64,000 nucleotides of DNA from Kiritimatiellia bacterium (GCA_017540905.1 JAFYAC010000084.1:1216-65215), one strand, 5' to 3'. Counted from the stretch's first letter, positions 8,461 through 60,359 are shown. A program made the numbers and translations. The notes: generated from the letters alone by a model not told the origin.

Positions 8461-8539
8461 GGGCATCCTCGCATAACCAACCTGCCGCATACTATGCCCC
8501 CCTACCCCACCCGTCAAGAATCCCTTGCCCTCCTTGCAT

Positions 8540-8574
8540 CCGCAAACTCGTCTCTCGTCTCTCGTCACTCGTTG
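8540..8574. repeat. CCGCAAACTCG + (TCTCTCG/TCACTCG)n heptamer module
   Basis: ccgcaaactcgtctctcgtctctcgtcactcgttg. Related copies at 9133..9164, about 43320..43345 and 43924..44020. Confidence 0.8.
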
Positions 8575-8928
8575 CCCCCCCAAGCACCGGGGGGACGGCG
8601 CCCTCGCCCGTCTTCATGCAAGGGGGGTACGGATGGGACAATCCATGGGCTTTCCAACCACGAGCGGACGCCCCCCCCCGCCCCCACACACTCACCACAC
8701 ACACACCGCCCCAATCTCCATCAACTCGCGATATCAAGGAAAACTCCCCTATTCAGCCCCATTTTTACCCATCTTCTCCCCCATGAACATGACGCCCCTC
8801 TCCCCCCCGGCGCGAGATGCTCGCGATATCAAGGCATTCCTGCGGGTTTCCCTTGGTATCCTGTCCGTCCCATGGCGATTGCACTCCGCATTGTCCTTTG
8901 CCCGGGACGTTGGTTCCCGTGGCTTCCC

Positions 8929-33213: not shown

Positions 33214-33681
33214 CCGCGCCACCGCCCGCCGCCACGCCCGCACGAACCACCCGCGCTCCTGCGCGAGGCCAAACAGCACCGACGCGGCGGCCAGGGACAG
33301 CAACGTCAGCGTCGCGGGAAACTCCCCGTAGTCGTACGAACCCTTCACAACAAATAAACCCGGCAATCCCGCCAAGGACGCAAGAATTCCCGCCACGATC
33401 CACCTGTTCCACTCCCGCGCGACCGCCCCATACAGCATCGCCAGCACGAACGGCAGGACCAGAAACCCGGGCCACAACCACAACGGCCGGGCCATCGCCG
33501 CGAGCTGTGCCAGCCACATCACCCCTATCCATCCACCGCCCCATGCCGCGAGCGAAAACTCCCACGGCCACTGCCCCGTTGCGATGGCATACGCCCACGT
33601 GAGCCCCGCCCAGCATGCCGCGACGCCCCCTACCGTAGTCCTGCCGCCTTGCATGATGGCCGTTATCAGTCCGTCATTCAT
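33130..33681 (-). CDS. Small Trp-rich integral membrane protein, hypothetical
   Basis: 183-aa ORF with ATG start and 4-5 hydrophobic helices (GQWPWEFSLAAWGGGWIGVMWLAQL...). Its 3' end overlaps the convergent gene by 84 nt. The palindrome array lies 50-90 bp upstream. Confidence 0.5.
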   Translation of the reverse strand: MNDGLITAIMQGGRTTVGGVAACWAGLTWAYAIATGQWPWEFSLAAWGGGWIGVMWLAQLAAMARPLWLWPGFLVLPFVLAMLYGAVAREWNRWIVAGILASLAGLPGLFVVKGSYDYGEFPATLTLLSLAAASVLFGLAQERGWFVRAWRRAVARSRSGGGGAGGVGEPAEEAVAEGGELRR

Positions 33682-33729: not shown

Positions 33730-33771
33730 TTTTCCAACCATTGGAAAACTTTTTTCCAATCATTGGAAAAA
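33730..33771. repeat. Array of 2 AT-rich palindromes TTTTCCAA(C/T)CATTGGAAAA (centres 22 bp apart)
   Basis: ttttccaaccattggaaaa, then ct, then tttttccaatcattggaaaaa. Same motif as the arrays at 45262 and 58974. Confidence 0.9.
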
Positions 33772-33800
33772 TTGCGGGGCAACGGTTGCGGCGGTCGCGC

Positions 33801-33845
33801 GGGGGCAATCGAGAGCAGTCGACTGCAATCGATTGCAATCGAATG
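33801..33845. repeat. Second copy of the 11-mer (TCGAYTGCAAN) element, intergenic
   Basis: gggggcaatcgagagcagtcgactgcaatcgattgcaatcgaatg is the inverted counterpart of 24726..24771. Confidence 0.85.
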
Positions 33846-33869
33846 CTCTCGGGGGGCGGGGGCGGGCGC

Positions 33870-36548
33870 TTACAGGCTTTCGAGGAGGGTGGCGAGTTTG
33901 TCGCGCTTTTCCTGGAGTTCCTTGCGGCGGGCGCGGGCTTGTTCCACCACCTCGGGCTTGGCGCGGGAGATGAAGTTGACGTTCTCCAGGCGCTTGGAGG
34001 TGTTCTCGAGTTCCTGGGAGGTCTTGGCGAGCTGCTCGGAAAGGCGCTTCTTTTCGGCGTCGACGTCGATGTGGCCCGCCAGCGACATGAAGAGGGTCCC
34101 CAGGGGGGTGATGACGCTCGGCATGGCTTTCGCGGGGGCATAGTCCATCTCGACTTCGAATTTCTCGGCCCGCAGGTGCGGGAGGTACGCGGCGCGGTCG
34201 GCGGAGACGCGCGAGGCGGTCGCGGCGTCGGCCGGGCGGAGGATGAAGTCGGCGGTCTGCGCGGGCGCGAGGCCGTAGTCGGCCCGCAGGTTCCGCGCGA
34301 GCCCGATGGTGGCGTGCTTGGCGTCGACGTAGGCGACGGCGTCGGGGGAGATGCCCTGCGCGAGGAGTTCTTCTTCGTCGAGGGCCTTGGGCCAGGGGGC
34401 GACGACGATGGACTCGGCGATCTGCGTGTAGCCCATGTCCTGCCAGAGTTCTTCGGTGAGGAACGGCATGATGGGGTGCAGGAGGCAGAGGGCGCGCGAG
34501 AGGATGTAGTGCATGACCTTGAGGACTTCGGCCTTGCGCGCGGGGTCGTTGCCGTAGAAAGGCTGCTTGGCGTATTCGACGTACCAGTCGCAGTATTCGT
34601 GCCAGAAGAATTCGAGGATGGCCTTGGCGTAGTCGTTGAAGCGGCAGCGCTCGATGTGTTCGTCGCACGCGGCGATGAGCCGGTGCAGCCGCGCGATGAT
34701 GTGCTGGTCGTCGGCGGTGAGCAGGGCGGGGTCGAACTGGGGGTCGCGCACGTCGGGGGCCTCGCCGGGGGTGTTCATCTGGAGGAAGCGGGCGGCGTTC
34801 CAGATCTTGGTGCCGAAGTTGCGCCCGAGCTCGAACTTTTCCTTGGAGATGTACACGTCCTGGCCGGTCGCCGTCAGCGCGATGAGGCTGAAGCGCAGCG
34901 CGTCGGCGGAGAAGTCGCGGATGATGTCCAGCGGGTCGATGGAGTTTCCGAGGGACTTGGACATCTTGCGGCCCTGGTTGTCGCGGACGGTCCCGTGCAG
35001 GTAGATGCGCCGGAAGGGGACGTCGCCCATGAACTCGAGCCCCGCCATGATCATGCGCGAAACCCAGAAGAAGATGATGTCCGGCGCCGTGACCAGGTCG
35101 CTCGTCGGGTAGTAGAACTTGAGCGACTCGGTCTGCTCGGGCCACCCGAGGGTGCTGAACGGCCACAGCCAGGAGCTGAACCACGTGTCCAGCACGTCGG
35201 GGTCCTGGCGGAATTTCTCCGACCCGCACTTGGGGCAGCGGTCGGGGGCGGTGCGGGCGGCCCACTCGTGGCCGCAGCCTTCGGCCTCGCAGGTGTAGAC
35301 GGGGATGCGGTGGCCCCACCAGATCTGGCGGGAGATGCACCAGTCGCGGATGTTCTCCATCCATTCGAGGTAGACCTTGTTCCAGCGCTCGGGGACGAAC
35401 TTGAAGCGGCCTTCCTTGAGCGCCTCGATGGCGGGGCGGGCGAGGGGCTTCATCCGGACGAACCACTGCGGCGAGAGGCGCGGCTCCACGACGGTGTGGC
35501 ACCGGTAGCAGTGGCCGACCGCGTGCTGGTGCGGCTCGACCTTCACGAGCAGGCCGGCGGCCTGGAGGTCGGCGACGATCTTGTCGCGGCAGGCGAAGCG
35601 GTCGAGGCCGGCGTAGGGGCCGGCGTTCTCGTTCATTTTGGCGTCGTCGGTCATGACGTTGATCGACGGCAGGTCGTGGCGGCGGCCCATCTCGAAGTCG
35701 TTGGGGTCGTGCGCGGGGGTGACCTTGACGGCGCCGGTGCCGAACTGCGGGTCGACGTAGTCGTCCTCGATGACGGGGATTTCGCGGCCGACGAGCGGCA
35801 GGACGAGGGTCTTGCCCTTGAGCTTGGCGTAGCGCTCGTCGCGGGAGTTGACGGCGACGGCCGTGTCGCCGAGCAGCGTCTCGGGGCGGGTCGTGGCGAC
35901 GACCACGCACTCGTTCTTGCGGCCGTCCTTGACGGGGTACCGGATGTGCCAGAGGTGGCCCGCCTCGTCCTCGTGCTCGCTCTCCTCGTCGGAGAGGGCG
36001 GTGCAGCAGCGGGGGCACCAGTTGATGATGTAGTTGCCGCGGTAGATGAGCTTCTTGTCGTAGAGGCGGCAGAAGACCTCGGCGACGGCGCGGCTGAGGC
36101 CCTCGTCCATGGTGAAGCGGGTGCGGTCCCAGTCGCAGGAATTGCCGAGCTTGCGGAGCTGGTTGAGGATGGTGCCGCCGTACTGCTCCTTCCAGGCCCA
36201 GACCTCCTTGAGGAAATCCTCGCGGGACATGTCCCAGCGGGTCTTGCCCTCCTTCTTGAGCTTGCGTTCGACGACGTTCTGGGTGGCGATGCCGGCGTGG
36301 TCGGTGCCGGGGACCCAGACGGTGTTGAAGCCCTGCATGCGGCGGCGGCGGACGAGGACGTCCTGGATGGACTCGTTGAGGGCGTGGCCCATGTGGAGGA
36401 TGCCGGTGACGTTGGGCGGGGGTATGACGATGCTGTAGGGCTTGCCGCCCTTGGAGGGTTCGGCATGGAAGAAGCCCTTCTCGCACCACCACTGGTACCA
36501 CTTGGGCTCGGCGGTCTTGGGGTCGTAGGATTTCGGAAGTTCGGTCAT
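33870..36548 (-). CDS. valS: Valine--tRNA ligase
   Basis: ORF 33870..36596. [14 protein letters not shown] (HIGH), [11 protein letters not shown] (KMSKS) and a C-terminal coiled coil. Start placed at ATG 36548 ([10 protein letters not shown]) with GAGGAG 9 nt upstream; ATG 36596 is an alternative. Confidence 0.95.
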
Positions 36549-36683
36549 GGGATCGGTCTCCTCGTTCAATGCATGTAAACTTTTATTATCGGCCATCCCC
36601 CCCCCGCGGGCAAGGAAAAACGCCCGCCGGAAAAACGGGCCGGCCGCAGGCCTCCCCCACCCTCCCGCGCGCGGGCCGCCGGC

Positions 36684-45128: not shown

Positions 45129-45261
45129 GTCGTCTCCTTTTTTCACGATGACCACGCACCTGCCATTCCTTCATCATGTGATGCCCCGTCCCCGCCTGTC
45201 AAAACCGCAATCGCCCCGCTCCGGTTTTGCACAATCCGGCCGCCCGCCGGGCAACCGAAAG

Positions 45262-45362
45262 TTTTCCAATGATTGGAAAATATTTTTCCAATGGTTGGAA
45301 AAATCAGGCCATTTTTCCAATGATTGGAAATTTTTCGTCCATTTTCCAATGATTGGAAAAAA
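45262..45362. repeat. Array of 4 palindromes TTTTCCAATG(A/G)TTGGAAAA (centre spacing about 22.5, 28.5 and 29 bp)
   Basis: Read directly from the sequence. Lies 150-250 bp upstream of the secreted LRR gene. It generates the FSNDWK/FPMIGK peptides seen in several track ORFs. Confidence 0.9.
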
Positions 45363-58104: not shown

Positions 58105-58980
58105 TCAGAACCGGAACTTCAGCCGCACCAGCGGCAGCGCCCCCGTCTCCACCTCCGCCCCGCCGTCCCCCTGCACCGCGCGCACGGCCCCCTCCAGCCG
58201 CTCCCGGTTGTGCCGGTGCGCCGCGTCGATGCCCCCGTAGATGCTCCCCGTGTACCACGTCAGCTCGAAGAACGTGCTCACCCCGAAGAGCGCCCACTGG
58301 TCCTCCTCCGCCGTCTCCACCATCGCCCAGATGAACAGCCCGTTGAGGATCATCGACCGCACCATGTTCCCCCACTCCCCCGAATACGCGTATCCCAATC
58401 CCGGCACCATCCCCAGCACCCCGCCCACCCACGGACGCTTGTCCCCCCGCGCCGCGTACCCCCGTATCGCCTCCCGCGACGCCTCCGCCTCCCCCGCATC
58501 CGGCAAGGCACCCAGCGCATCCAGCGCCGCATCATAATCCTTCTCCCGCAAATGCGCCGCCGCCTCCCCCCGCGCCGCCGCCGCCCGCCACCCGTCCCCG
58601 TCGTCCCGTCCCTCCGCCTTCCGCCCCAGACTCCCGTAGAAAAACGCCGCCGAGCCCCAATCCTTGTCCGCCTCCGCCTGACTGGCGCGCAGCCACGCCA
58701 GCGGCAGCTCCAGCGCGCGTTCGCGGTCCGCGTCCTCCGCCCGGTCCAGGTACTTCCACGCCCGCTTCCGGTCCCCCGCGCGCGAATACTCCCGCGCCGC
58801 CATCCAGTACCATCCCGCCGCCCGCTCCCCGTCCTCCTCCCCGAGCGCGAGCCGCCGGAACTCCAGCGCCGCCTGCGACCACTGCTTCTCGCCGTCGAGC
58901 TGCAGCGCCAGCGCCGCGTCCTGCCCCGCGACCGCCACGCCGCCCGCCCACACGCAACCGGCAACCAAAAAAGTTTCCAA
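58105..58980 (-). CDS. TPR-like repeat protein with C-terminal two-TM module (start uncertain)
   Basis: C-terminal part of ORF 58105..59487. AGWYWMAAREYSRAGDRKRAWKYLDRA..., then WVGGVLGMVPGLGYAYSGEWGNMVRSMILNGLFIWAMV. There is no in-frame ATG after the palindrome array. TTG 58980 precedes a lipobox-like LVAGC. Confidence 0.5.
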   Translation of the reverse strand: METFLVAGCVWAGGVAVAGQDAALALQLDGEKQWSQAALEFRRLALGEEDGERAAGWYWMAAREYSRAGDRKRAWKYLDRAEDADRERALELPLAWLRASQAEADKDWGSAAFFYGSLGRKAEGRDDGDGWRAAAARGEAAAHLREKDYDAALDALGALPDAGEAEASREAIRGYAARGDKRPWVGGVLGMVPGLGYAYSGEWGNMVRSMILNGLFIWAMVETAEEDQWALFGVSTFFELTWYTGSIYGGIDAAHRHNRERLEGAVRAVQGDGGAEVETGALPLVRLKFRF

Positions 58981-59097
58981 TGATTGGAAAACTTTTTTCC
59001 AATGGTTGGAAAACTTTTTTCCAATGGTTGGAAAACTTTCCGTTTTTTTCCAATGATTGGAAAAAATTTCTGCGATTTTTCCAATGATTGGAAAAAA
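58974..59097. repeat. Array of 5 palindromes TTTCCAATG(A/G)TTGGAAA (centre spacing about 22.5, 22, 28.5 and 31 bp)
   Basis: Read directly from the sequence. Abuts or overlaps the 5' end of the TPR-like gene and appears in the track as repeated FSNHWKK/FPIIGK. Confidence 0.9.
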
Positions 59098-59474
59098 TTT
59101 TTTCCACCGCGGCATGCAGGAACGCAGGGCCGGCGATGATGCGCGACCGGACCGCGCGCAAGCATCCGCCCCCCTCCGAGAGGGGGGTGGCGCTTCAGCG
59201 CCGGGGGGAGTACTGCGCGTTGCCGTCGCGCGAACCGGCCGCTTTCTTGGCAACGGAAGAGCTTGTCCTCCATGCGGTTCGCACCCTGCACGGCTTGCCG
59301 CTACGGCCACCCGCAGTACTCCCCCCGTCGCGGCCCCTTGCGCCGGGCATGCATCCACCTTGCGCCCATCATGCACGGCCGCGCCACCCCCCTCTCGGAG
59401 GGGGGCGTGTCCCGTCGCCCGCCTTGCATCCACCGGACACGGGGCCATCTCCCAGACAGTGCATTCCATATCCG

Positions 59475-60359
59475 TCACTCCATCCATGAATCATGCTCCT
59501 CCACGGGGTCCGCGATGCGGATCGAACCATCCGGGCGCTCCACCGTCCGCTTCTCCTCGTGCACCACCATCGGCTCGCGGATGAGCCGGTCGGCGCCCAT
59601 CGGGATGCCGAGCAGGCCGTGCTTGCGCGACGCCTGAAGGAAATACTCCGAGCAACTCGGCGATAGCGAACAGCGGCTACCGAGCGCCGGCGAAATCGCC
59701 TTGCGGTAGAACCCCACCACCGCCCGCCCCGGCCACGACCCGATTCCTCCCGACGCCCCGTGCCCGCGCCGCTTCATCCCGTTCGTGCGCGGATTGCTCT
59801 CCCGCCACACCGCCGACGGCCACGAATCCCGGCACGCCTCCACCGCCATCGCCAGGTCCGGACGCGCCCCGCGCAGCGCACCGTCCGCCTTCAGGTAGAA
59901 ATGCATCAGGCAGGCCGCCCGCGAAAACAACTCCGGCTCCCGCAGATGCAAAAACGCGTATTCCAGCGCCTCCGCCGTCCGGGCGTCCGCGTGCCGCCCG
60001 TCCCACGCCGCCCGCGCCGTTTCGTACGCCGCCAGCGGACGCAGCGCCTCCGGCTCCGTCCCCTCCGACCGCCACAACCCGTCCAGCCGCTCCACCGCCG
60101 CCCCGTACGCCTCCGACCCCCATGCCGCCGTCCCCACCCCCGCCATCGCCTCCAGGAAGGCAATCCGGTCCCGCGCCCCCGCCCCCTCCTCCGCCTCCGC
60201 CCGCCGGCACTCCACCCCCAGCGCCGCCCAGTCCCCCTCCTCGAACAACTCCTCCGCCAGCCGCATCGACACCCCCTCCCCCCGCGCCGCCACCGCCGCC
60301 GCCAGTAACAGCACCGCCACCCCGTTCGCCCCCCACAAGGCTTTGCGTTCACTTTTCAA
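59475..60359 (-). CDS. YidD-domain protein (membrane protein insertion efficiency factor) fused to an about 200-aa N-terminal secreted helical domain
   Basis: C-terminus VGFYRKAISPALGSRCSLSPSCSEYFLQASRKHGLLGIPMGADRLIRE is the YidD signature. TTG 60359 gives the signal peptide (M)KSERKALWGANGVAVLLLAAAVAARG. The upstream part of track ORF 59475..60542 is implausible. Confidence 0.6.
   Translation of the reverse strand: MKSERKALWGANGVAVLLLAAAVAARGEGVSMRLAEELFEEGDWAALGVECRRAEAEEGAGARDRIAFLEAMAGVGTAAWGSEAYGAAVERLDGLWRSEGTEPEALRPLAAYETARAAWDGRHADARTAEALEYAFLHLREPELFSRAACLMHFYLKADGALRGARPDLAMAVEACRDSWPSAVWRESNPRTNGMKRRGHGASGGIGSWPGRAVVGFYRKAISPALGSRCSLSPSCSEYFLQASRKHGLLGIPMGADRLIREPMVVHEEKRTVERPDGSIRIADPVEEHDSWME

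What the first reader, a model, noticed from the sequence alone, without database searches (positions are those of the whole stretch)
58974..59097. Arrays of an AT-rich perfect palindrome (TTCCAATGATTGGAA) upstream of three unrelated genes, with helical-turn spacing
Three arrays of 2, 4 and 5 copies lie at 33730-33771, 45262-45362 and 58974-59097. Each unit is TTT(T)CCAAT(G/C)(A/G)TTGGAAA(A), in DNA that is otherwise about 70% G+C.

Centre-to-centre spacings are about 22, 22.5, 28.5, 29 and 31 bp, close to 2 or 3 helical turns. That would place dimer sites on one face of the helix.

Each array lies upstream of a start codon. The genes are the Trp-rich membrane protein (33681, minus), the secreted LRR protein (45513, plus) and the TPR/two-TM protein (about 58980, minus). 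In the last case the array touches or overlaps the 5' end and stays open in frame, which creates FSNHWKK repeats in the ORF track.

This looks like an operator or iteron array for an unidentified dimeric DNA-binding protein. Alternatives are a nucleoid-organising, partition-like or phase-variable element.
Basis: seen in the sequence. Interest (0 to 1): 0.66.

Follow-up and report, generated by a model that had tools for sequence, protein, structure and literature searches.

The report
Class-wide phased palindrome arrays between genes
The three AT-rich palindrome arrays are real, but they are local copies of an apparently undescribed repeat found between genes all over this rumen Kiritimatiellia genome and across its bacterial class, most likely docking sites for an unidentified symmetric DNA-binding protein and not private switches for three genes.

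Summary
In detail: 11 copies of TTCCAAYSRTTGGAA lie in three arrays at the stated coordinates, against 0.2 expected by chance.

The arrays are not gene-specific operators. This 3.5-Mb genome holds about 570 sites in 168 arrays, spaced only 22 or 30-31 bp apart. Dialects of the core TCCAA-N3-TTGGA occur across the class Kiritimatiellia, usually as doublets 32 bp apart, and are at background level in the rest of the phylum.

Arrays lie in every kind of intergenic region. Density ranks convergent > co-directional > divergent, and there is no link to secreted-protein genes.

Recognition of duplex DNA by a two-fold symmetric protein is favoured by five results:
- spacing is conserved while linker sequence is not;
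- a three-species footprint shows the same;
- there are no compensatory changes;
- symmetry extends to bases that cannot pair in a hairpin;
- doublets have an internal dyad.

The protein remains unidentified. RAYT, Fur and DnaA were tested and rejected; Lrp/AsnC was inconclusive.

In this genus the site was amplified, partly as a ~160-bp composite unit of about 47 copies. Copy number changes between congeners, and arrays coincide with synteny breakpoints. The function is inferred to be architectural or boundary-marking. No RNA-seq could be used.

The parts
33732..33768 (.). Array 1. Two sites (centres CCA and TCA), 22 bp apart. It lies about 100 bp downstream of the valS stop (33870) and 51 bp upstream of a 156-aa ORF (33214-33681, minus strand).
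   Evidence: In congener G002 the right flank is joined to a different locus and no array is present.
45264..45358 (+). Array 2. Four sites in the canonical oriented order TGA-22-TGG-29-TGA-29-TGA. It lies between a Fic-gene region (minus strand) and a BspA-type LRR gene (45513-46616, plus strand).
   Evidence: G002 has only 2 sites here, and synteny breaks at the array.
45225..45243 (+). Companion box TTTTGCACAATCCGGCCGC. Its end is 21 bp before the first site of array 2. It forms the left part of the ~160-bp composite unit (about 45214-45369).
   Evidence: the 21-bp offset occurs in 37 of 54 cases and always in the same relative orientation; about 47 copies, with similarity confined to -50..+11; no consensus secondary structure.
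58975..59093 (+). Array 3 (the finding's coordinates). Five sites TGA-22-TGG-22-TGG-29-TGA-31-TGA. It starts 22 bp upstream of the predicted start (58953) of a 282-aa protein with no Pfam match (58105-58953, minus strand).
   Evidence: It is conserved in G001 and G002. G002 has 6 units.
59102..59467 (.). Foldback repeat of a separate dispersed family, inserted between array 3 and the YidD-fusion gene (59475-60320, minus strand). It is not part of the palindrome system.
   Evidence: G001 and G002 have about 40 bp here; 274 HSPs genome-wide with internal inverted arms; only 5 of 60 lie near arrays.
33870..36569 (-). valS (valyl-tRNA synthetase), the gene whose 3' end precedes array 1.
   Evidence: tRNA-synt_1, E = 7e-143.

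Best explanation
The arrays are local members of a dispersed family of helically phased palindromes that is confined to the class Kiritimatiellia. The conserved core is TCCAA-N3-TTGGA, usually extended to TTTTCCAA-K-S-M-TTGGAAAA.

The sites are most likely read on duplex DNA by a two-fold symmetric protein that is still unidentified. It would bind neighbouring sites cooperatively on one face of the helix: a dimer of dimers at 32 bp, and in this genus at 22 and 30-31 bp.

The sites sit at gene boundaries and favour the 3' sides of genes. By inference, the complex acts as an architectural or boundary element, such as a nucleoid-associated, topological or read-through barrier. It does not act as a gene-specific operator.

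In this genus the ancestral site was amplified to about 430-530 copies per genome. This happened by tandem expansion and by spread of a ~160-bp composite unit (GCACAATCYGSTRGC box, 21 bp, then a four-site array). The arrays are now unstable and coincide with rearrangement breakpoints.

Shown: the distribution, the spacing, the symmetry, the footprint and the copy-number instability. Inferred: that a protein binds, and what the complex does.
For: Genome-wide census
- About 570 sites lie in 168 arrays, with spacings of only 21-23 or 29-32 bp.
- The arrays share an oriented canonical architecture.

Class-wide distribution
- The generic form TTTCCA-N5-TGGAAA has 0-4 copies in 108 genomes from the rest of the phylum. 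It reaches 1368 copies per genome inside the class. The reversed control pattern gives 0-2.
- Dialects exist in genera that first looked motif-free.
- A stripped-down dialect with exact 32-bp doublets occurs in a family scored as zero.

Selection on site and spacing
- In G024, 66 of 78 adjacent pairs are exactly 32 bp apart, while linker columns are unconserved.
- A doublet 10 bp after the dnaN stop is kept in three species. Both sites are conserved; the 13-bp inner linker has diverged but kept its length.

Duplex and protein, not hairpin
- One-sided arm changes outnumber compensatory ones: 227 to 5 in G024 and 350 to 4 in G000.
- The palindrome extends to positions 7 and 9, which cannot pair in a hairpin. 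These switch symmetrically from G/C to T/A between lineages. The centre is always G or C.
- The centre base is unbiased relative to transcription, 74 G to 70 C.
- Doublets show an internal dyad: centre pairs GC 39, CG 14, same-base 22, p = 4e-7.

Location
- Arrays are 20- to 75-fold enriched in non-coding DNA.
- Density ranks convergent > co-directional > divergent in both genomes (p = 0.003 and 0.025). In G024, 57 of 108 co-directional gaps of 60 bp or more carry one.

Instability
- Copy number differs at 8 of 12 loci retained between G000 and G002, and 9 of 21 loci are synteny breakpoints.
Against: - No binding protein was identified. Four named candidates failed or were uninformative.
- No gene recurs next to sites in low-density genomes.
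- Counts differ up to 400-fold within single genera (1 against 411; 5 against 380). That looks more like bursts of a selfish repeat than a stable host system.
- About 30% of the arrays in this genome are copies of one composite unit with defined ends.
- If transcribed, the arrays would fold very stably (-43 to -52 kcal/mol, z about -6.5 to -6.9). An RNA-level role is therefore not excluded.
- Gene calls come from my own crude caller, which covers 79% of G000. The MAG is 84% complete and contains some duplicated contigs, so counts are approximate.
Confidence: 0.55

Rival explanations
1. Selfish or mobile repeat with no host function. It would be a MITE-, REP- or BIME-like element that spreads by transposition or gene conversion and is simply tolerated in intergenic DNA.
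For: - Counts are burst-like and patchy within genera.
- A ~160-bp composite unit has about 47 copies, defined ends and conserved internal linkers.
- Copy number changes quickly and arrays sit at synteny breakpoints.
- Arrays separate single accessory-gene cassettes on contig C83.
- Lower density in promoter-bearing (divergent) regions fits purifying selection against insertions.
Against: - The Y1 transposase (RAYT) family does not follow the motif. Motif-poor G005 and G018 have 14-16 copies. Motif-rich G000-G002 and G020 have only weak partial hits, and G021 has none.
- I did not recognise terminal inverted repeats or target-site duplications at the composite ends.
- In other lineages the linkers are unrelated in sequence but fixed in length. 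Copying of a unit does not explain that.
- An orthologous doublet is conserved across three diverged species while its surroundings diverge.
- The same core and the same 32-bp spacing persist across many families.
Confidence: 0.2
2. RNA-level element. Transcribed palindromes would form hairpins, or long stems between neighbouring units, that stabilise or terminate transcripts at 3' ends, as REP elements do in enterobacteria.
For: - Many sites lie 2-20 bp after stop codons, and some nearly fill short convergent spacers.
- Density ranks convergent > co-directional > divergent.
- Predicted folding is strong.
- Complementary centre bases in doublets are in excess, 53 complementary against 22 not.
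- Array orientation in G000 is biased relative to transcription, 51 to 23.
Against: - There is no compensatory covariation.
- Conservation is symmetric at positions next to the centre, which cannot pair.
- The centre base shows no strand bias relative to transcription in G024.
- Arrays are common in divergent promoter regions, 21 of 39 in G024.
- The strict linker length is not needed for pairing.
- No U-tract follows the palindromes, and no intrinsic-terminator-like sites are predicted in the window arrays.
- No Rfam family matches.
Confidence: 0.12
3. DNA uptake signal for natural transformation. It would be an over-represented, lineage-specific 'dialect' sequence accumulated by biased uptake.
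For: - Density is high, up to about one site per 3.5 kb.
- Dialects differ between genera and families.
- Distribution among relatives is patchy.
- Sites often lie downstream of genes.
Against: - From memory, known uptake sequences are not palindromes, do not need tandem arrays at fixed helical spacing, and are frequent inside genes. Here coding DNA is depleted 20- to 75-fold.
- Arrays also sit in variable accessory regions.
- Competence genes were not tested.
Confidence: 0.05
4. One reading: private operator or iteron arrays that regulate the three downstream genes.
For: Each window array lies within 22-155 bp of a start codon.
Against: - There are 168 arrays genome-wide.
- 40 of them lie in convergent regions.
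- No functional or secretion bias appears among neighbouring genes.
- Arrays 1 and 2 are lost or halved in a congener in which at least one flank is retained.
Confidence: 0.03

Closest known systems
REP elements and BIMEs of enterobacteria (repetitive extragenic palindromes arranged in mosaic arrays that dock IHF and DNA gyrase; from my own knowledge)
   Same: - Hundreds of short extragenic palindromes per genome, in arrays with a few fixed linker classes.
- Preference for 3' and convergent regions.
- Association with rearrangements and with insertions of other repeats.
- A mosaic with a second conserved box.
   Different: - The units are AT-rich in a GC-rich genome.
- Sequence, not pairing, is conserved (no covariation).
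- The RAYT transposase does not track them.
- The core and its 32-bp spacing are conserved across a whole class, not just a species group.
Lrp/AsnC-type operator clusters (E. coli Lrp, Ss-LrpB, archaeal FFRPs) and NrdR-box pairs (from my own knowledge)
   Same: - 15-16-bp palindromes with a weakly specified centre.
- Repeated at about 31-32 bp (three helical turns).
- Bound cooperatively by dimers that assemble into higher oligomers and wrap DNA.
   Different: - Those are local operator clusters of a regulon, whereas these sites fill up to half of all longer intergenic regions.
- The single Lrp-like gene of the class is also present in motif-free families, shows no covariation with the dialects and has no sites beside it.
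Fur-family 7-1-7 boxes (Fur, PerR, Zur; from my own knowledge)
   Same: A 15-bp 7-1-7 inverted repeat. The dialect of this genus shares the inner AATnATT.
   Different: No Fur-family gene is found in G000, G020, G024, G030, G019 or G091, which are among the most motif-rich genomes on the panel. The dialect of other lineages has AAGsCTT instead.
Noc and ParB binding sites (NBS ATTTCCCGGGAAAT, parS; from my own knowledge)
   Same: - A dispersed palindrome with TTTCC/GGAAA arms.
- Tens to hundreds of copies.
- An architectural rather than gene-regulatory role.
   Different: - The arm spacing differs (7 central bases against 2).
- These sites form phased doublets and arrays.
- ParB-family gene content was not tested.

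Membership tests
REP/REPIN-RAYT system | Presence of a RAYT (Y1 transposase, PF01797) gene tracks the repeats | tested here: not met
   Motif-poor G005 and G018 have 14-16 matches. Motif-rich G000-G002 and G020 have only weak partial hits, and G021 has none.
REP/REPIN-RAYT system | Imperfect palindrome maintained as a hairpin, with compensatory changes | tested here: not met
   227 one-sided against 5 compensatory changes in G024, and 350 against 4 in G000; the companion box has no consensus structure.
REP/BIME | Extragenic location, arrays with a few fixed linker classes, bias to 3' and convergent regions | tested here: met
MITE | Defined ends with terminal inverted repeats and target-site duplications | tested here: inconclusive
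   the ~160-bp composite has defined ends (similarity from -50 to +11), but I recognised no clear TIR or TSD; no clean empty site was recovered. Most sites in other lineages are not part of any longer unit.
Fur-family operator | A Fur-family protein is encoded in genomes that carry the boxes | tested here: not met
   PF01475 is absent from G000, G020, G024, G030, G019 and G091.
DnaA-box cluster | The half-site is a DnaA box read by DnaA domain IV | tested here: not met
   Only the g6 dialect (TTTTCCACA) fits TTWTNCACA. There is one DnaA_C domain per genome everywhere. The recognition helix RNHATVLHA is identical across dialects. Classical boxes (TTATCAACA, TTGTTCACA) lie next to dnaA and are distinct from the array there.
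Lrp/AsnC operator cluster | An Lrp/AsnC protein whose presence or recognition helix tracks the sites, usually with autoregulatory sites | tested here: inconclusive
   a single copy is present in 34 of 36 genomes, including motif-free ones; no clean covariation of helix 3 with the dialects; no sites next to the gene in motif-rich genomes.
Intrinsic terminator | GC-rich hairpin followed by a U-tract | tested here: not met
   none is predicted in the arrays. The units read T-tract, stem, A-tract, so the T and A tracts pair with each other.
Known RNA family (Rfam) | Match at gathering score | tested here: not met
   no match in the window.

The most novel reading that the evidence does not exclude
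Kiritimatiellia have an undescribed, abundant, sequence-specific architectural DNA-binding protein. It would assemble as a dimer of dimers on TCCAA-N3-TTGGA doublets spaced three helical turns apart and mark gene boundaries. In some genomes this covers more than half of all longer intergenic regions. Protein and site would co-evolve into lineage 'dialects', and the sites would be prone to runaway amplification. This would amount to genome punctuation, or a topological insulator system, with no characterised bacterial counterpart.
Probability: 0.3. Interest if true: 0.8.

Novelty: new variant of a known kind. Interest (0 to 1): 0.6.

Why it matters
If a dedicated protein reads these sites, Kiritimatiellia would have a sequence-defined system that marks gene boundaries at a density close to one per operon in some genomes. 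That would make it possible to test how bacteria insulate neighbouring transcription units or supercoiling domains.

There are practical consequences too:
- The arrays create spurious in-frame peptide repeats in ORF tracks.
- Several arrays in this assembly lie within 300 bp of contig ends, and synteny between close relatives often breaks at arrays, so they complicate comparison of these MAGs.
- Annotation pipelines and motif-based regulon predictions for this class should recognise and mask them.

Tried and rejected
- **RAYT / Y1 transposase as mobiliser.** Its phyletic pattern does not follow the motif.
- **Fur-family reader**, suggested by the 7-1-7 / AATnATT layout. The family is absent from several of the most motif-rich genomes on the panel.
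- **DnaA boxes**, suggested by TTTTCCACA in one dialect. DnaA is single-copy with an invariant recognition helix, and classical boxes are present at dnaA.
- **Lrp/AsnC.** It is present everywhere, shows no covariation and has no autoregulatory sites. Inconclusive, not supported.
- **Companion box as a REP-like hairpin.** RNAalifold finds no consensus pairs.
- **Sigma-54 or sigma-70 promoter reading** of the box and arrays. By eye the spacing does not fit sigma-54, and the scan finds no sigma-70-like site inside the arrays.
- **Paralogous gene family flanking arrays.** There is no strong enrichment; the best is a 41-member family, p = 0.017.
- **Recurrent neighbour gene in low-density genomes** as a candidate autoregulated binder. 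None found.
- **Secreted or envelope gene enrichment.** None.
- **Presence/absence profiling for a partner protein.** Abandoned once genomes scored as motif-free turned out to carry dialects.
- **Literature.** No paper holds the motif strings, and nothing turned up on Kiritimatiellota repeats.

Full report
**Observation.** The three arrays exist exactly as described. One search finds 11 matches to TTCCAAYSRTTGGAA at 33732-33768 (2 sites), 45264-45358 (4) and 58975-59093 (5). Shuffles of the window give 0.21 on average. Spacings are 22; 22, 29, 29; and 22, 22, 29, 31 bp. Seven units are perfect 7-1-7 palindromes. The four TGG/CCA-centred units break the symmetry at one position. No Rfam family matches anywhere in the window.

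**Scale in this genome.** The window lies in a 3.5-Mb, 67% G+C MAG of 178 contigs. Earlier notes of this scan call it an uncultured rumen Kiritimatiellia.
- It holds about 570 sites in 168 arrays of 1-7 units, most often 4. Spacings fall only at 21-23 or 29-32 bp.
- Arrays have an orientation and a canonical form, TGA-22-TGG-30-TGA-31-TGA, with recurring linkers.
- About 47 arrays carry a second conserved box, GCACAATCYGSTRGC. It ends 21 bp before the first site and always has the same relative orientation.
- Similarity among these copies runs from about -50 to +11 around the array and then drops to background. This defines a ~160-bp composite unit.
- The box has no consensus secondary structure.
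- Some contigs are duplicated in the assembly (identical array flanks; dnaA found on both C42 and C75), so counts are slightly inflated.

**Position relative to genes.** I used a codon-usage gene caller of my own. It is crude and covers 79% of G000.
- Of the 168 arrays, 83 lie in co-directional regions, 40 in convergent, 25 in divergent, 8 inside genes and 12 at contig edges.
- Per kb of intergenic DNA the order is convergent 0.32 > co-directional 0.23 > divergent 0.18 (p = 0.025).
- Genes with an array at their 5' end are not enriched for signal-peptide-like N-termini (0.31 against 0.22, p = 0.16).
- No paralogous family is strongly associated with arrays.
- In co-directional regions, arrays point against transcription 51 times and with it 23 times (p = 0.0015). 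This probably reflects the oriented composite unit.
- In the window, array 1 follows valS, array 2 lies between a Fic-gene region and a BspA-type LRR gene, and array 3 lies between a YidD-fusion gene and a 282-aa protein with no Pfam match.
- None of the three arrays contains a sigma-70-like promoter or an intrinsic-terminator-like site.

**Distribution beyond this genome.**
- The exact 15-mer occurs 433-528 times in the three genomes of the genus. Copies also occur in other families of the order.
- In those families the dominant form is TTCCAAG-S-CTTGGAA at 31-32 bp.
- With a free centre, the counts are 1014 in G020 and 714 in the 2.5-Mb G024.
- Sister genera that first looked empty carry dialects. 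G005 has TTTCCACGCTATGGAAA, and G014, G007 and G011 have TTTCCAC-N3-GTGGAAA.
- The generic TTTCCA-N5-TGGAAA has 0-4 copies in 108 genomes from the rest of the phylum, with the reversed control at 0-2. Inside the class it is patchy: 1 against 411 copies within one genus, and 5 against 380 within another.
- Low-count genomes still carry 31-32-bp doublets and triplets.
- A family scored as zero (G083) has exact 32-bp doublets of a stripped-down core, TCCAA-N3-TTGGA. They occur in co-directional, convergent and divergent spacers. G037 seems to lack the system entirely.
One of them is a Pontiella MAG.

**Evidence on how the sites are read.**
- In 400 kb of G024 there are 145 arrays for 315 genes. 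They occupy 23 of 38 convergent, 21 of 39 divergent and 64 of 235 co-directional regions, often 2-20 bp after a stop codon. Among co-directional gaps of 60 bp or more, 57 of 108 carry one.
- Sixty-six of 78 adjacent pairs are exactly 32 bp apart, although the linker columns are unconserved.
- A doublet 10 bp after the dnaN stop is retained in three species. Both sites are conserved, the inner 13-bp linker has diverged at constant length, and the DNA beyond is unalignable. One species has grown to four sites.
- Arm mismatches are almost never compensated.
- The palindrome reaches positions 7 and 9, which cannot pair in a hairpin. These switch symmetrically from G/C to T/A between lineages. The centre is always G or C.
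- The centre base is unbiased relative to transcription. Doublets prefer a dyad arrangement of centres: GC 39, CG 14, same-base 22, p = 4e-7.

Together these results favour a two-fold symmetric protein on duplex DNA, binding as a dimer of dimers on one helical face. They argue against an RNA or single-strand hairpin. That rival is not excluded, because transcribed arrays would fold at -43 to -52 kcal/mol.

**Dynamics.** I compared G000 with congener G002 at 21 loci.
- Arrays are retained at 12 loci, and unit number differs at 8 of those. Window array 2 goes from 4 to 2 units and array 3 from 5 to 6.
- At the other 9 loci, homology stops 10-20 bp before the array and the far flank lies elsewhere. 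Window array 1 is one of these.
- The 22-bp difference at array 3 shows that the array is non-coding.
- A 365-bp segment beside array 3 is missing from both congeners. It belongs to a separate foldback repeat family.

**Search for the partner protein.** It failed.
- RAYT does not track the motif.
- Fur-family genes are absent from several of the most motif-rich genomes tested.
- DnaA is single-copy with an invariant recognition helix, and classical DnaA boxes sit at dnaA.
- The single Lrp/AsnC gene of the class is present in motif-free families, shows no covariation and has no adjacent sites.
- No gene recurs beside sites in low-density genomes.
- The literature held here contains neither the motif strings nor any account of such repeats in this phylum.
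- Earlier agents of this scan reached the same general reading on other windows. I treat those notes as leads, not as support.

**Verdict.** The interpretation as operators of three genes is not supported. The idea of phased sites for a dimeric protein, and the nucleoid-organising alternative, remain the best reading. The family works like REP/BIME-type genome punctuation but fails the tests for REP/RAYT membership. I file it as a new variant of a known kind, with an unidentified reader and an inferred function.

Noticed in passing
window 59102-59467: A ~365-bp foldback repeat with internal inverted arms containing CCCCCCTCCGAGAGGGGGG. It is absent at this site in both congeners and belongs to a dispersed family (274 HSPs in the genome).
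   Followed up: partly
window 33795-33850; also G000 contigs C121, C114 and C14 next to arrays: Tandem GCAATCGA(T)TGC-type palindromic repeats (for example TGCAATCGATTGCA) lie between the valS stop and array 1. Similar repeats sit beside arrays on other contigs.
   Followed up: no
G000 contigs C56/C116, C57/C112 and C42/C75: Pairs of contigs carry identical array flanks, and dnaA is present on both C42 and C75. The MAG therefore contains duplicated contigs (strain heterogeneity or redundancy), which slightly inflates repeat counts.
   Followed up: no
G000 C75:8600-9000 (same as C42): The region upstream of dnaA holds classical DnaA-box-like words (TTATCAACA, TTGTTCACA, TTTTCAACA, TAATTCACA) next to a four-site palindrome array at 8499-8596. 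It is a candidate oriC or dnaA control region.
   Followed up: partly
G000 contig C83:700-4950: Four four-site arrays within 4 kb separate single accessory genes from one another (a HigA-like antitoxin, an HD-domain protein, a carboxylate-amine-ligase-like protein and a small Cys-rich protein). The layout is cassette-like.
   Followed up: partly
L030-L032 (G020:C65): GC-rich inverted repeats (CGGGTCGGAGACCCGGCCTACA...TGTAGGCCGCGTGACCTCACGCGGCGGC) lie directly beside palindrome doublets. The doublets here overlap the 5' coding ends of genes for proteins that look secreted.
   Followed up: no
G037:C6 (L208-L217): This motif-free genome has a different dispersed repeat, GGTTTTCCAACCCGTGACACGGACAGGAATG. 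It has about 9 copies in 200 kb and contains a single TTTTCCAAC half-site.
   Followed up: no
G000 C93:6902-7126 and orthologues (L168-L197): A single-copy Lrp/AsnC-family protein of about 160-175 aa is conserved in 34 of 36 Kiritimatiellia genomes sampled. It has an acidic helix 3 and a conserved C-terminal tail (..THFMLKTYK..GVLM...ERL.VSP).
   Followed up: partly
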